DNA of 64,000 bases. It comes from Zootoca vivipara. Lineage: Eukaryota. Positions 27,001 through 36,100 of the stretch are shown piece by piece (positions within the stretch are counted from its first letter, which is position 1; every line of letters starts with the position of its first letter). Position numbers: made by a program. The stretch lies in NCBI RefSeq assembly GCF_963506605.1, contig NC_083285.1:36828001-36892000 (forward strand), written 5' to 3'.

Positions 27001-30000
27001 GTGAAAAATGTAGAAGTTTCAAGAATAACTTTAGGCAACAGCATGCTTGAGCTGGCAAAGAAAATGGTGCAAAACAAGGGTCTTCCAATTAAATACCTAT
27101 TTCTAGAAACCCATTTCTAGAGAAACAAAAACATCTGCCCAGCTTAGACACAAGCAGTGAAGTGTCAAGGGCTTTGTTCAGCAGGCAATAACACTTTCTG
27201 ATAAAGTGTTAAAAACTCCAATTCCTAAATAGAATTAAAACCTCTACAAATTACCTAAGATCCTTTATTTCCCTTCTGCTGGATTCTTCTGCCACCTGCA
27301 GAGCAGATAACTTCTCTTTGTACTCATCCTTTTCCAACTGCCTCTGAGTATCTTGCTCCACTTTGATTTTCTCCAGTTCAGATAATCTGGCTTCAAGTTC
27401 TAACCTGAAACATTATGGAGTGTTTAAGAGCTGTGAAAAACAGATTTTTGTTTTTTAAATCGTATCACAAAAACACATATATAAACATATATATATGAGA
27501 GAGAACACTTCTACTTGGCTGGTATAGCTTCAGTGTTCCATGACTAGTGCAGAAACAGCACAAGCTCCTTTCCTCAGATTTCATAGCCAGGCACAACTAA
27601 TTCAGCAGCTTCCTTGGACAGGGCAAGAGTGATTTCAGGATACTGAAGCAATGTGAGATGCGTTTAAAACACCCTGTCCACTGTAGCAATAGCAACTAGC
27701 AGCAGCAATTTTACAGCTGGAACATAATGCACAATGACTATATTCATAGGCAGGGAAGTTGCTACAATTTTAAACTCTTTTTGAGCAAGAGAAGAAAACA
27801 TACAAGAACATACTTACTTTTCCTCCTGTAATGCTGCAAGTTTTTGGAAGCCTTCTTCTTCTGCAGCTTGTACTTTGCGTACCAATTCACGATCCTTTTC
27901 TATTAAAAGCATCTTGTGCTGCTCAAGTGTTTTCTTACGTATTTCATTATCTGAGTGTAAACCTGTTTTTAAACATTTGCAGTATTTGAAAGCTCTGAAA
28001 ATCATTACACAGAAGCTGATAAAACTGAATCTGTTGCTCACTCACGTAAGCTACCCTTTTTCTTACATTCAAGTACAACTTTGCCTACAACTTTCCCACT
28101 ACTTAAATCAGTGTAGCTTTAGGGAAGTATTATAGAATTAGGCTAAGAACCTTCAATGAATATTTACTCAGAAGTAAATCCCACTGGGTTCAGTGAAGTT
28201 TACTCCCAGGTACACGCACACAGGATTGCAGCCTATGTCCCACAAGTTTCAGAAGGAAGGTTAAGTTTCTGTTTAACTTTCACCTGTGGGAAAATCAATG
28301 ACAATTAAATGTGTTCAAACTTCACCAGTAATGCATTTCATATGCATTTACAGAATTAAAATTAGACACTATTTCTACTGGCATTAATGGGAGCATTAAT
28401 GGAGGGATATTGTGGCATTTTTATGATAAAGTAAAACATGAATATATTCTCATATTGCAATAATTGTGTGAACCCTCTCTTAAATGAGAATTGTCATCCA
28501 TTCATGATTATTTATACTTAAATAAAGGAGGAGGAGGAGAACAACGAAGAAGAGGGTCAAATCGAGGGATAACTGAAGGTTTAAATGTAGTGAAGGGTTT
28601 TTATAGTGTTGTTTACTTTATCTTATTTTTTTTTTTACCTTTTTTTGTATTTTTCTGCTTGATAGCGTGTTTAGATAATTGAATTTAAATTTTAGTTAAA
28701 CATAAACAATTATTAAGACCTATTTAGATTTGAGGGAGGAAATAGGAGGAACTAAGCAGATAAGGCAGAAGTTTGAGGGAAAATTGATATCTCCTTGGTG
28801 TTTAAAACTCTTTGCAAGTTCGTGAAATTTATTTTAGTGATTGGGAAAGTGTTATAATATTAATAAAGGAATGAATCTCAATATTATTTCCTGGAATGTG
28901 AACGGTTTAAATAATAAACTTAAACGGAATAAGATAGAGCATGTTTTGAAAAAAAGCCAATGGGATGTGATATGCCTACAAGAAGTTCATATTGCAAGAA
29001 AACATGAAAGAGTTTTGAAAAATAAAAAATTGGGGGAAGAATTTGTTTCGCTAGACCCAAAAAAGAAAAGAGGGGTAGTAACATATATTAAACATAAAAT
29101 AAAAACAGAAAAAATATTTCAAGACAAGGAAGGGAGAGTGGTCGGAACGAGACTCTATCTCCCCAATGGTAATGTCATGGTAATAAATGTCTATGCGCCA
29201 AATGGGGGGAAAATAAATTTCTTTAAGGAGTTAAATGACTGGATAGGAGAATTTGCGAATGATGAAGAAATAATCCTAGTAGGAGATTTTAATGGGATAG
29301 TGAGACCGGATATAGACAAATCAAGCAACCAGAAAAAGAATAAAGGGAGACTACCAGGTGTGTTTTTCAATATCGTGGAAAATTTTGATTTAGTAGATTG
29401 TTGGAGACTAAGAAATGAAAGAGAGAGAAGATACACCTTCTATTCAGAGTCTAAAAAATCAGCGTCGAGAATTGACATCATGTGGGTATCTAAAAATTTA
29501 CTTTCCAAAGTAGTGAAAACTGAAATAATGACAAAATCTTTGTCAGACCACAACCCGGTGATGTTGAAAATAAAAGATAATTATAAGAAATTTACCAGAT
29601 GGCGTCTAGATGAGAGTGTTCTAAATGATGAGAATTTTGTAAACAAAATGAAGAAAGAAATAAAAGAATTTTTCCAAACTAATGAAACAGAAGGTATGAG
29701 CTTAGAAACAGTCTGGGATGCAGGTAAAGCATTTATAAGAGGTATGTATATACAGCAGAGAAGCAAAATAAAAAAAGAAAGGGAAAAAAAATTAAATATA
29801 ATTAAGGGGAAAATAGAGGAAGGAGAAAAAGAATTAGCTAAAAACCCTAAAAATGAGAAAGCAGCAATTCAAGTTAAAATCTGGCAAAATGAGTTATCAG
29901 CATTAATGGGTTATGAGTTAGAAAAGAAAATTAAATGGGCAAAACAGAGAACATTTGAAGCCGGGGGGGAAATTGGGAAGTTATTGGCATGGAGGTTAAG

Positions 30001-33123: not shown

Positions 33124-36100
33124 GGGGGCGGGGGGAGAGAGAGAGACAGACGCGCTCACGGAGGTCACGAGGCTTCGGCAGCCAGCAGCTACGGCTCTTC
33201 AGTGCATTTTTACAAGCTTTTAAAGGAAATACGTGTCTGTGGAGCGACAGCAAAATGGAGATATTTTTAAGGGGGGGTTGGCTGGCGGGAGGGGGGTTAT
33301 TGCTACTGGGTGAAGGGTCTATCAGTATGTCTTATTTTCGGGGTATGGCTTGTATCGCGCAATTGCTTAGAAATCCTGCTATGGCTTATATAATGACTAC
33401 GTCTTAAAAAAGGGGAAACACGGTAGTAGAACTTATGATAAAAGATGGCTAACTTATCAAGAATTATTGATTAAGGAAAATGGGAAATTAATATTGAAAC
33501 CGTATTATGAGATCAAGGATAAGTGTTCGAGCTGGCTGCAATACCATCAGATGCAGAGTCTTTTAAACAAGCACAGGGAAATTGGTTTTATAGATAACAA
33601 ATCTAAATTACAGGAGATCTTGTTAGATAATGAAAGTAAACTATTAGCAAAATTATACAGCCACTTGTTAGAGTGGGAATTGAAAGACGAAGAAGTCAAA
33701 TGTACAATGATAAGGTGGGCACAAGATTTAGGAAGACCGATATTCAGAAAGCAATGGGATAATTTGTGGAGGGAAGGCATGAAATTTACAGCTTGTTCAA
33801 ATATAAAAGAGAACATGATGAAGATAATATACAGGTGGCATCTCACACCGGAAAAGATAGCAAAAATTTATAAAACTAATTCGAAAGAATGTTGGAAATG
33901 CAAAAAGAAATTAGGAAATTATTACCATTGCTGGTGGCTGTGTGATAAAATACATGAATTTTGGAACAATGTGTATGAAAAATTAAAAAAGATGCTTAAG
34001 TTTACATTTGAGAAAAAACCAGAGATAATGTTATTGAGTATGGTGCCAGATAATTTCCCTAACGATAGGAAAAATATATTATTATATGCATGTGCTGCAG
34101 CTCGCCTTCTTATAGCAAAGAACTGGAAAGGAGAGAAAGTACCAACAATTGGTGAATGGCAAGTAAAATTAGTGGAATTCATGAACTTAGCAAAGATGAC
34201 AGCAGCAATTAGAGATATCCCGATACAGAAAAGTAAAGCAGAATGGAAATATGTTGAAGAGTATTTTAAAAAGGAGAAAATAAACACAAGTTTGGTGATA
34301 TGCTTTGAGTAAAATACATATAGGATGAATAACAAATGGGTAATTAATGGAGGAAATGTTAATTTGGTAGATAATGCGGGGATAGAGATAAAGCAGGACA
34401 AAGTAGAACTGATAAAGGGAAGCAATGTTCAAACAATAGGAAATATGTTTTCCCCCCCCCCTTTTTTTTTCTTTTTCTTTTTTAATCTGTATTATATTTC
34501 TATGTTTATGTAAGTGTTGTTTTTTATCTGGTATGTATATGTATATGTGTATGCACACATATTACATATGCATGGGAGTATATATATATGCTATACTCCT
34601 TTTTTTCTTCTTCTTCTTTTTTTTTCCTTTTTTTCTTTTTTTCCTTTTTTTTCTCTTCTACTTCTTTTTCTACCTCATTGATTTATGCTCTACGATTTTG
34701 TTATGTAACTTTGATATATAATTTATGATTTATGGTATATGTTTTATGATCTCGTTTGTAATTATAAAATACGAAATAAAGGTTAAAATTTAAAAAAAAA
34801 AAGAATATATTCATGTTTTACTTTATCATAAAAATGCCACAATATCCCTCCAACCCCAGAAAAAGACATTAAAAATGTAAAAATTAAATATTCACAATGC
34901 TATGACAGTTATGGCGAAAAGTCCCTACTGAATTTAAGAATTACACTAATTATATCCATGATTACTTCTGTTATGTCAGCTTACTGGTATATGAGCACAT
35001 AGCTGGGTGCAGTGGGGCTACATGTTAGACAAAAACCATGGCAGCTTATTGAAAGTGACACATTAAAATGAAAGTATCCCAGTGAAAGGTATATGGCTGC
35101 ACGACAGTACTTACTGGACTGTTCTAAACTTTTCTCAAAGACAAAATTCTGTATCTATAATTGGTGGCAATAACAAATCACTGAAGTAATAAAGTTTTAC
35201 CATCTATTTCACTTTGAATCTTGTTTCTTTCTCTTTCTATCTCAGTCCTAGCTCTTGCCGCTTCCAGCTTGATGTTTGTTATTTCTAACTTGTGTGAATG
35301 CTTAAGTTCTTCAACCTATAGAAGATAATGTTTTATCAATTTCCAGTTTTGATCAGAACAGTTTTTCGCCTCTTTCTGCTTAAGGAGGATAAAATCATGC
35401 AAGAACCCCTCCTATCTTCTTCTGGATGAAAGATTCTGAGGTTTTCTCCTACTTCCATAGGAGTTCCCCAAGCTAGAAATATGGTAGCTGAAATGATTTA
35501 TGAAAAATATTTTTAAAATGGTAACCATTTAAAATACAGCCTGCTCTGGGTGTCATTGCCAAATGAGAGGTGGCAGGGCAACCACTAGGAGCAGAGCCTT
35601 TCCAACAGTGGCACTCACACAATGGAACACCATACCTAGAGGTCTGTCAGACCCCAACACTATATTCTTTCAGGCATCTTGGGTGCCTTGGTAGAAAGGT
35701 AGTATATTAAAGATAATAAATTAATTCCCAAAGTAGGGAATTACAGAAAAAAAATTAAAAATACTGTAGACCATAAAAGCTTTCAGGTTATGTTCATCAA
35801 TGTCTGACTAAATAGGGGAATCTAGTGCCATGTATCTGTAACAGACTGCATTCAGTGATCAGCACCTTCCTTATACCCAATTTAACAGGAGCTGGGTCTC
35901 CACCTCTCTTTTGCACACACAAATATTATTTGGAAATTCTTAAGATAAAATTTCAAACAATTATTAATGAATACCCCAATCTGCTATTATTTAACTTGCA
36001 ACAGATATTAATAAGAACTGTGACTAGGTAATAACTGATACACATGTACACCTGATACATATATGCAACCTGTAACAAGGCGCCTCTCACATGAAAACTT

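What the first reader, a model, noticed from the sequence alone, without database searches (positions are those of the whole stretch)
28400..34852. L1 sits at the apex of a perfect ~90-bp palindrome (51-bp inverted flanks)
Seen: 28400-28450 is the exact reverse complement of 34802-34852. The self-complementary 10-mer GAATATATTC lies at both L1 junctions, so it doubles as a direct TSD. Removing the L1 and one copy leaves a perfect 90-bp palindrome. A 10-bp duplication (gcattaatgg, 28381 and 28393) abuts the left arm. Inference: either the L1 inserted into the tip of a pre-existing cruciform, or fold-back/template switching during insertion copied the downstream flank in inverted form. Either way the 6.4-kb block now has TIR-like ends that could pair in the CEP83 pre-mRNA or promote inversion/deletion.
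Basis: partly seen in the sequence, partly recalled or inferred. Interest (0 to 1): 0.7.

Follow-up and report, generated by a model that had tools for sequence, protein, structure and literature searches.

The report
L1 inserted at a palindrome's centre
A lizard L1 retrotransposon in a CEP83 intron is flanked by two perfect 50-base inverted copies of host DNA, most simply because it landed exactly in the middle of a 90-base palindrome; it is a curious single case, not a new kind of element.

Summary
28400-28450 is the exact reverse complement of 34802-34852, GAATATATTC sits at both junctions, and removing the insert plus one 10-mer leaves a perfect 90-bp palindrome (29% GC). Twenty surrogate windows gave inverted matches of only 15-20 nt. 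The 51st pair (t28450/a34802) lies inside the insert, so each host arm is 50 bp.

The insert is a true L1-clade element on the + strand. It has an endonuclease plus reverse-transcriptase ORF2 (E 1.7e-152 to human ORF2p), an AATAAA signal and an A11 tail, but no ORF1. Its ORF2 is split by a nested 1.69-kb TA-flanked inverted-repeat transposon. It lies antisense in a 7,235-bp CEP83 intron of a lacertid-like lizard.

Best reading (about 0.45): ordinary target-primed insertion, with the two nicks 5 bp either side of the centre of a pre-existing palindrome.

Rivals that remain open:
- An inverted copy of the downstream flank was made during insertion. That model gives a canonical TT|AAGA cleavage site.
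- A template switch occurred later between the two palindromic duplication copies.
- The arms are a MITE, or an assembly artefact.

No lizard DNA collection was available, so the decisive empty-site comparison could not be run. Interest is modest.

The parts
27787..27963 (-). CEP83 exon downstream in the transcript (aa 348-406 of the Podarcis muralis protein)
   Evidence: tblastn of P0005 against the window, 86% identity, E 2e-23
28381..28402 (+). Near-tandem duplication GCATTAATGG (28381-28390 and 28393-28402). The second copy overlaps the left arm by TGG. Read as a junction scar of the event that copied the arm.
   Evidence: Only 5 such loci (exact 10-mers spaced 10-15 nt, not microsatellite) occur in 64 kb.
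28400..28439 (.). Left arm X, 40 bp of host DNA
   Evidence: Exact reverse complement of 34813-34852
28440..28449 (.). Left copy of the self-complementary 10-mer GAATATATTC: target-site duplication and palindrome core
   Evidence: D14
28450..34802 (+). L1-clade insertion of 6,353 bp (4,664 bp without the nested element). No ORF1, so 5'-truncated or ORF1-less.
   Evidence: Bounded by the 10-mer copies. All three frames of 28450-28870 are closed and have no ORF1-like Pfam match. Lengths.
28871..31736 (+). ORF2, N-terminal part: APE-type endonuclease and reverse transcriptase
   Evidence: Pfam Exo_endo_phos 2e-15 and RVT_1 1.7e-34. E 1.7e-152 to human L1 ORF2p 8uw3, residues 3-933 against 8-942.
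31737..33423 (.). Nested non-autonomous TIR transposon of 1,687 bp, flanked by TA at 31735-31736 and 33424-33425. Inserted after the L1.
   Evidence: 25-nt perfect inverted ends including the TA (I4). A short TA-flanked relative lies at 22374-22610.
33426..34312 (+). ORF2, C-terminal part
   Evidence: ORF 33371-34309 matches human ORF2p 1045-1237, E 6.9e-17. The frame is continuous with the N-terminal part once 1,689 bp are left out: 1,250 codons, then a stop (counts only).
34775..34802 (+). AATAAA signal (34775-34780) and A11 tail (34792-34802)
34803..34812 (.). Right copy of GAATATATTC
34813..34852 (.). Right arm, reverse complement of X. Probably the original copy.
   Evidence: The inference that it is the original rests only on the scar lying at the outer edge of the left arm.
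35199..35315 (-). CEP83 exon upstream in the transcript (aa 310-348)
   Evidence: tblastn of P0005, 100% identity over 39 aa

Best explanation
This is a two-step history.

Step 1 (inferred). A short palindrome in a CEP83 intron of about 870 bp grew into a perfect 90-bp AT-rich palindrome through one fold-back or template-switch copying event. The left arm is the copy. Its outer edge carries a 12-bp-spaced duplication that shares TGG with the arm.

Step 2 (anatomy shown, mechanism inferred). An L1 RNA was inserted by target-primed reverse transcription. The bottom strand was nicked at 5'-GAATATATTC/ATG-3', and the top strand at the same sequence on the other side of the centre, 10 bp away. The 10-bp target-site duplication is therefore the palindrome's self-complementary core. 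The two 40-bp arms were pushed 6.35 kb apart and now look like terminal inverted repeats.

Why the centre: either the hairpin or cruciform tip is a structural target for the L1 endonuclease, or any first nick 4-10 bp from the centre finds an identical site on the other strand at a normal stagger.

Later, a TA-flanked TIR element landed in ORF2. The L1 is antisense to CEP83.
For: - Every part of the anatomy is that of an ordinary TPRT insertion with no extra event: AATAAA plus an A11 tail, an exact 10-bp direct repeat at both junctions, and an endonuclease plus RT ORF2.
- The core of any perfect palindrome is self-complementary. This model therefore explains for free why the duplication is a palindrome. 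Only 136 of 63,991 window 10-mers (0.21%) are self-complementary.
- The inferred empty site folds as a 43-bp stem with a 4-nt loop at -47.3 kcal/mol, against -4.7 +/- 1.9 for 200 shuffles.
- Quasi-palindromes are common in this window: seven loci, 86-97% arm identity.
- A near-tandem 10-mer duplication abuts the left arm edge. Only 5 such loci occur in 64 kb, which fits a copying junction.
- Published support. Template switching can create a perfect stem in one event (PMC8794818, abstract). Fold-back synthesis at breaks makes templated inverted duplications (PMC11724301, abstract). The L1 endonuclease is only modestly sequence-specific, responds to DNA structure, and cuts faster near ends and hairpin bubbles (PMC12809410, abstract and Discussion).
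Against: - The implied first-strand site is AT|GAAT in top-strand notation. That is 3 of 6 against TT|AAAA, which I derived from the published 5'-TTTTT/AA-3' (listings). The primer would end in ...TTC.
- No perfect hairpin with arms over 19 bp (spacer up to 10) exists elsewhere in the window. In the human catalogue, long near-perfect palindromes are rare and mostly AT repeats (PMC7680136, passages). A random hit on a centre is therefore very unlikely, and the model needs targeting that has not been shown.
- A single-arm empty site (...GCATT|AAGAATATATTC|ATG...) would give the near-consensus TT|AAGA and a 12-bp duplication. Only 1.46% of window hexamers match TTAAAA at 5 or more of 6 positions.
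- No empty site was seen.
Confidence: 0.45

Rival explanations
1. The inverted copy was made during insertion. The empty site had one arm only (...GCATTAA-GAATATATTC-ATGTTTT...). The L1 endonuclease cut at TT|AAGA. While the 5'-truncated cDNA was joined to the upstream end by error-prone end joining, 50 nt of the downstream flank were copied in inverted orientation as filler at the 5' junction. In this model the left 10-mer is part of the copy, not a target-site duplication.
For: - The cleavage site would be near-consensus, 5 of 6 positions; the background for such matches is 1.46%.
- The insertion lacks ORF1. In the experimental series, 5'-truncated insertions show the most variable junctions (PMC11702581, passages).
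- That preprint also reports 3 insertions with inverted genomic DNA at the reciprocal end and 3 with sequence templated from nearby DNA, in a series of 99 L1 and 235 pseudogene insertions. It lists inverted duplications among target-site changes.
- The scar at the left arm edge fits filler synthesis.
Against: - It must treat the self-complementarity of the 10-mer next to the tail as a coincidence of about 0.2%.
- The copy has to start exactly at the first flank base after the tail, with at most 1 nt of microhomology (t28450/a34802).
- I found no simple strand path. It needs either the cDNA end folding back across 4.7 kb, or the upstream end copying the displaced top strand of the other end.
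- Documented fold-back copies at breaks are mostly 5-34 bp (PMC11724301, abstract).
Confidence: 0.22
2. A template switch happened after insertion. The L1 first inserted canonically at TT|AAGA with the 12-bp duplication AAGAATATATTC. Because 10 bp of that duplication are self-complementary, the two copies are also inverted repeats 6.35 kb apart. In a later replication, a nascent strand ending in the left copy re-annealed at the right copy, copied 40 nt of the downstream flank, and returned.
For: - Canonical site and typical duplication length (12-18 bp is typical per PMC11702581).
- The palindromic 10-mer becomes the cause of the event rather than a coincidence.
- The scar at the return point.
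- Short template switches are a documented mutation class (PMC5453318, search listing only; PMC8794818, abstract).
Against: - It needs a switch across 6.35 kb seeded by only 10 bp, then a return to within 2 bp of the departure point.
- It needs a palindromic duplication to begin with, about 0.2% of 10-mers.
- There is no direct evidence for the order of events.
Confidence: 0.1
3. The 90-bp palindrome is a tiny hairpin-type MITE or a solo pair of transposon ends, and the L1 landed in it.
For: The window holds several hairpin-like repeats and TIR elements.
Against: - No second copy of the arm in 64 kb.
- No duplication flanking the arms: the outside sequences are ...GCATTAA and ACCCCAG....
- The arms are 100% identical, whereas the other hairpin repeats in the window are 86-97%.
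- Copy number across the genome could not be tested.
Confidence: 0.07
4. Assembly artefact. One arm was created when a repeat boundary was resolved or a gap was closed. The repeat length of 51 equals a common odd k-mer size.
For: The length is exactly 51. A young multi-copy L1 is hard to assemble from short reads.
Against: - No N anywhere in the window.
- Both junctions are clean and fit retrotransposition (tail, duplication).
- The L1 interior is unique in the window and carries its own nested insertion.
- A k-mer graph cannot invent the junction words without reads that contain them (reasoning, not a test).
Confidence: 0.06

Closest known systems
Canonical L1 target-primed reverse transcription insertion
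   Same: APE-type endonuclease plus RT ORF2, AATAAA, poly(A) tail, exact short direct repeat at both junctions, loss of the 5' part, antisense position in an intron.
   Different: The duplication is self-complementary and sits at the centre of a 90-bp palindrome. The implied nick site does not fit the TTTTT/AA consensus.
L1-associated target-site rearrangements (inversions, templated insertions, inverted duplications, fold-backs) described in PMC11702581
   Same: Inverted host DNA right at an L1 junction of an insertion that lacks its 5' part.
   Different: The events I read about were flap inversions, copies from nearby DNA, or large fold-back junctions. I saw no description of a 50-bp inverted copy abutting both ends.
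Palindromic AT-rich repeats and centre breakage of palindromes
   Same: A perfect, spacer-free, AT-rich palindrome able to form a hairpin or cruciform, with the event exactly at the centre. An insertion at the centre would stabilise it.
   Different: It is only 90 bp, whereas the classic cases are hundreds of bp (recalled). The break was filled by a retrotransposon rather than a deletion. The centre-break paper (Cunningham et al. 2003) was seen only as a reference title; its content is recalled.
Template-switch mutations and fold-back synthesis at breaks
   Same: One event makes a perfect reverse-complement copy with sharp ends, no flanking duplication, and small junction scars.
   Different: Here 40 nt were copied, which is at or beyond the upper range quoted for break-associated fold-backs (5-34 bp). 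The link to this locus is inference only.
Twin priming (5'-inverted L1)
   Same: An inverted-repeat geometry at an L1 insertion.
   Different: In twin priming the L1 sequence is inverted, not the flank. Here the 5' 420 bp show only low-complexity similarity to the rest of the element, in either orientation.

Membership tests
L1-clade non-LTR retrotransposon | ORF2 with an N-terminal APE-type endonuclease and a reverse transcriptase | tested here: met
   Pfam Exo_endo_phos 2e-15 and RVT_1 1.7e-34. Human ORF2p 8uw3 E 1.7e-152 over residues 3-933. C-terminal part E 6.9e-17.
L1-clade non-LTR retrotransposon | ORF1 upstream of ORF2 | tested here: not met
   Only 421 bp lie upstream of the ORF2 ATG. 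All frames are closed and there is no Pfam match. This fits 5' truncation; an ORF1-less lineage is not excluded.
L1-clade non-LTR retrotransposon | 3' poly(A) tail after a polyadenylation signal | tested here: met
   AATAAA 34775-34780 and A11 34792-34802
TPRT insertion | Exact target-site duplication flanking the insert | tested here: met
   GAATATATTC at 28440-28449 and 34803-34812. It is ambiguous because the 10-mer is also part of the inverted repeat.
TPRT insertion | First-strand nick at a TTTTT/AA-like site | tested here: inconclusive
   AT|GAAT (3 of 6) if the palindrome pre-existed; TT|AAGA (5 of 6) if the empty site had one arm. The specificity of this lizard L1's endonuclease is unknown.
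MITE / TIR DNA transposon (for the arms) | Target-site duplication immediately outside the inverted ends | tested here: not met
   The outside flanks are ...GCATTAA and ACCCCAG..., with no shared word.
MITE / TIR DNA transposon (for the arms) | Many copies in the genome | not testable with these tools
   No second copy in the 64-kb window. No lizard genome collection was available.
Twin-primed L1 | The 5' segment of the L1 is inverted relative to the 3' segment | tested here: not met
   One continuous + strand ORF2. The 5' 420 bp have only low-complexity matches to the rest.
Cruciform-forming perfect palindrome as the target | A spacer-free perfect palindrome present before insertion | not testable with these tools
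   Only inferred, by deleting the insert and one 10-mer copy. It needs an empty allele or orthologue.
Known structured RNA | Match to an Rfam family in or next to the arms | tested here: not met
   0 matches at gathering score in 27000-36000. The rejoined 90-mer itself was not scanned, because that tool reads only stored sequence.

The most novel reading that the evidence does not exclude
The tips of hairpins or cruciforms formed by perfect palindromes are sequence-independent entry points for L1. ORF2p would nick the stem a few base pairs from the loop on both strands. This would produce self-complementary target-site duplications and convert a fragile palindrome into a stable, widely spaced inverted repeat. 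A genome-wide excess of L1 and SINE insertions with palindromic duplications and inverted flanks would follow.
Probability: 0.15. Interest if true: 0.6.

Novelty: new variant of a known kind. Interest (0 to 1): 0.35.

Why it matters
If the palindrome came first, this locus is a natural example of an L1 choosing DNA structure over its sequence motif. Recent endonuclease biochemistry suggests this but does not show it in a genome. The insertion would also have defused a potentially fragile palindrome.

If the arm was made during or after insertion, the locus is a germline-fixed example of the inverted templated copies so far seen mainly in cultured cells and tumours.

Either way, one intron of CEP83 grew from about 870 bp to 7.2 kb. 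It now carries a 50-bp perfect complementary pair that could loop out the L1 in the pre-mRNA. As a single locus with no comparison, it is an anecdote.

Tried and rejected
- Extending the arms outward or inward, ungapped over 60 nt each way: no further similarity.
- Other copies of the arm or of 550-600 bp of either flank in the window: none beyond 19 nt.
- Other copies of this L1 in the window, to define its 5' end: none.
- Twin priming, or a duplicated 3' UTR at the 5' end: only T-rich low-complexity matches.
- ORF1 remnant in 28450-28870: no open frame and no Pfam match.
- Scan for other poly(A) insertions with duplications of 11 nt or more, to learn this genome's L1 target preference: one dubious pair, so uninformative.
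- Rfam over 27000-36000: nothing.
- Tandem Repeats Finder over 28000-35300: only low-complexity arrays and the 196-bp repeat inside the nested element.
- Literature searches for a LINE inserted at a palindrome centre: none among the 35 listed titles of 158 papers holding the terms. The listing is not exhaustive, and subscription journals are not covered.
- Single-event models in which the 10-mer's snap-back creates the arm while the L1 is being inserted: every path I drew put the L1 outside the palindrome or needed a second identical DNA end. They are kept only as the lower-ranked rivals.
- Not used: structure, complex and atlas tools have no bearing on this question, and the genome-contig collection holds only bacteria and archaea.
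Full report
**Observation.** I read both ends directly. 28400-28450 (TGGAGGG...GAATATATTCT) is the exact reverse complement of 34802-34852. The repeat finder reports the pair as 51 nt, 100% complementary, with 6,351 nt between the arms (I1), and a string comparison agrees. In 20 first-order Markov surrogates of the window, the longest perfect inverted match was 15-20 nt, so this is not chance. The repeat stops sharply: 60 nt further out and 60 nt further in show no similarity. 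The innermost pair is t28450 against a34802. These are the first base of the insert and the last A of its tail, so that pair is probably a coincidence. The host-derived repeat is 40 bp (X) plus the 10-mer GAATATATTC (P) on each side. Joining 28400-28449 to 34813-34852 in a script gives a 90-nt sequence identical to its reverse complement, 29% GC. As single-stranded DNA it folds into a 43-bp stem with a 4-nt loop at -47.3 kcal/mol, against -4.7 +/- 1.9 for 200 shuffles. The 10-bp duplication GCATTAATGG at 28381 and 28393 is real, and its second copy overlaps the arm by TGG.

**What the insert is.** The ORF 28871-31756 carries Exo_endo_phos and RVT_1 domains. It matches human L1 ORF2p at E 1.7e-152 over residues 3-933. 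The ORF 33371-34309 matches ORF2p residues 1045-1237 at E 6.9e-17. Between them lies a separate element, 31737-33423. It has 25-nt perfect inverted ends when the flanking TA is counted (I4). Leaving out those 1,689 bp gives one frame of 1,250 codons before the stop (counts only). ORF2 is therefore undecayed and the L1 is young. A TA-flanked relative of the nested element, about 237 bp long, lies at 22374-22610. Upstream of the ORF2 ATG there are only 421 bp. All frames there are closed and there is no ORF1-like match, so the copy is 5'-truncated or belongs to an ORF1-less lineage. The 3' end has AATAAA at 34775-34780 and an A11 tail at 34792-34802. The nearest database proteins are Podarcis muralis RT-domain proteins at only 46-48% identity. 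That search scored only the 7,999 candidates sharing most words, so closer relatives may have been missed.

**Gene context.** Plexin cytoplasmic-domain exons lie on the + strand at 2.9-13.3 kb. One exon-sized ORF, 42264-42509 on the - strand, was searched alone and hits CEP83 of lizards and turtles, best Podarcis. A local tblastn with three named reference CEP83 proteins maps 14-15 exon pieces from 52073 down to 20841 on the - strand. Many are 97-100% identical to the Podarcis muralis protein. I mapped exons one by one and did not join them into a spliced model. The window is lizard, not human, and holds no N. The whole block lies in the intron between exon 35315-35199 and exon 27963-27787. 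That intron is 7,235 bp and would be 872 bp without the L1 and one 10-mer. The L1 is antisense to CEP83.

**How it arose: the preferred reading.** Everything at the junctions fits a plain target-primed insertion, and the only peculiarity is the target. If the 90-bp palindrome existed first, a bottom-strand nick at GAATATATTC/ATG and a top-strand nick at the same sequence across the centre give a 10-bp duplication that is necessarily self-complementary. The two arms then end up as inverted flanks, with no further event needed. This explains for free a feature that is otherwise rare: only 136 of 63,991 window 10-mers (0.21%) are self-complementary. In a palindrome, any first nick 4-10 bp from the centre has an identical site on the other strand at a normal stagger, so exact centring is less of a coincidence than it looks.

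- Structural targeting is plausible from recent biochemistry. The L1 endonuclease is only modestly specific for TTTTT/AA, responds to DNA structure, and cuts about tenfold faster near ends, overhangs and hairpin bubbles (PMC12809410; abstract, hairpin passages and Discussion read).
- The palindrome itself could have come from a single template switch or a fold-back repair event seeded at a short palindrome (PMC8794818 abstract; PMC11724301 abstract).
- The near-tandem duplication at the left arm edge looks like the junction scar of such an event. Only 5 comparable loci exist in 64 kb, so its position within a few bases of the arm boundary is unlikely to be chance (roughly 0.2-0.4% by my estimate). 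It suggests the left arm is the copy.

**What argues against the preferred reading.**
- The implied nick site AT|GAAT fits the consensus at only 3 of 6 positions.
- Elsewhere in the window, the longest perfect hairpin (spacer up to 10) has 19-bp arms, and the seven quasi-palindromes are 86-97% identical.
- In the human catalogue, near-perfect palindromes over 50 bp number 69,888 and are mostly very AT-rich; only 783 are 100-200 bp (PMC7680136, passages).
- A random L1 hit on the centre of a perfect non-repetitive 90-mer is therefore very improbable, and the model needs a targeting effect that nobody has shown.
- If the empty site had only the right arm (...GCATT|AAGAATATATTC|ATGTTTT...), the L1 site would be TT|AAGA, 5 of 6 positions, with a 12-bp duplication. 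Only 1.46% of window hexamers reach 5 of 6. I recall TTAAGA as one of the commonest variant L1 sites; that ranking comes from memory, not from a call.

**Rivals.**
- Copying during insertion. These came from a series of 99 L1 and 235 pseudogene insertions, and the paper lists inverted duplications among target-site changes. This model gets the canonical site, but it must take the palindromic 10-mer as luck. It also needs the copy to begin exactly at the first flank base.
- A later template switch between the two copies of a palindromic duplication. This makes the 10-mer causal, but it needs a 6.35-kb jump seeded by 10 bp.
- A MITE origin. There is no flanking duplication and no second copy in the window.
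- An assembly artefact. This cannot be excluded here. The length of 51 equals a common k-mer size, but there are no gaps and both junctions make biological sense.

My rough odds, built from order-of-magnitude priors rather than measurements, are 0.45, 0.22, 0.10, 0.07 and 0.06 for the preferred reading and these four rivals in order.

**Consequences.** The two arms would form a 51-bp perfect RNA duplex (-79.6 kcal/mol) in the CEP83 pre-mRNA. The arms lie 346 nt and 436 nt from the neighbouring exons. Pairing would loop out the L1 and bring the splice sites back to roughly the original spacing. No exon lies between the arms, so exon circularisation is not expected. Editing, sensing as double-stranded RNA, and inversion through 50-bp repeats are all conjecture.

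**Comparison and novelty.** The element is an ordinary L1 insertion, and membership features were tested as listed. The unusual part is the target architecture. Two literature searches listed no report of a LINE at a palindrome centre among the 35 titles shown, out of 158 papers holding the terms. That is weak evidence of absence. I rate it a new variant of a known kind, of modest interest, because one locus without an empty-site comparison cannot separate structure-targeted insertion from a junction accident.

**What stayed unchecked.**
- The orthologous or allelic empty site, genome-wide copy number of the arm, the L1 family consensus, and read support. No eukaryotic DNA collection was on hand.
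- The rejoined 90-mer was not scanned against Rfam.

Noticed in passing
31737-33423; relative at 22374-22610: A 1,687-bp non-autonomous TIR element with TA flanks splits the L1 ORF2. A TA-flanked relative of about 237 bp sits in another CEP83 intron. The large copy holds a 196-bp tandem repeat (32589-33054) with TG/GA microsatellites.
   Followed up: partly
32108-32205 and 564-634: A hairpin repeat (37-nt arms, 97%, 24-nt spacer) inside the nested element matches a sequence at 564-634 at about 92%. It is probably another small repeat family.
   Followed up: no
2868-13263, + strand: The last exons of a plexin gene (Plexin_cytopl and Plexin_RBD hits) lie convergent with CEP83. From memory this matches the PLXNC1-CEP83 neighbourhood of other vertebrates.
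   Followed up: partly
2181-2330, 11554-11693, 13787-13872, 14937-15352, 50801-51029, 61299-61453: Six further quasi-palindromes with arms of 43-111 nt, 86-94% identity and 0-29 nt spacers, mostly GC-rich. The one at 14937-15352 is nested, with a palindrome inside a larger inverted pair.
   Followed up: partly
14170-14700: A GC-rich array with a period of about 150 bp whose units are also mutually inverted. It lies between the 3' ends of the plexin gene and CEP83 (I9-I11 and I18-I20).
   Followed up: no
36239-41260, + strand: A run of medium ORFs in one CEP83 intron. ORF 39107-39727 has a weak GIY-YIG hit (E 0.027, below the cut-off). This may be a decayed Penelope-like element; it is a lead only.
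   Followed up: partly
28871-34312: The L1 ORF2 is intact apart from the nested element, yet only 46-48% identical to the nearest database proteins (Podarcis muralis). It is either a divergent L1 lineage or closer copies were missed by the word filter.
   Followed up: no
28433-28449 and 34796-34812: Canonical TTTT/A endonuclease sites lie symmetrically 7 nt outside the 10-mer on both strands of the inferred palindrome (GT|AAAACAT...). They were evidently not the sites used, because CAT is missing next to the tail (D14).
   Followed up: yes
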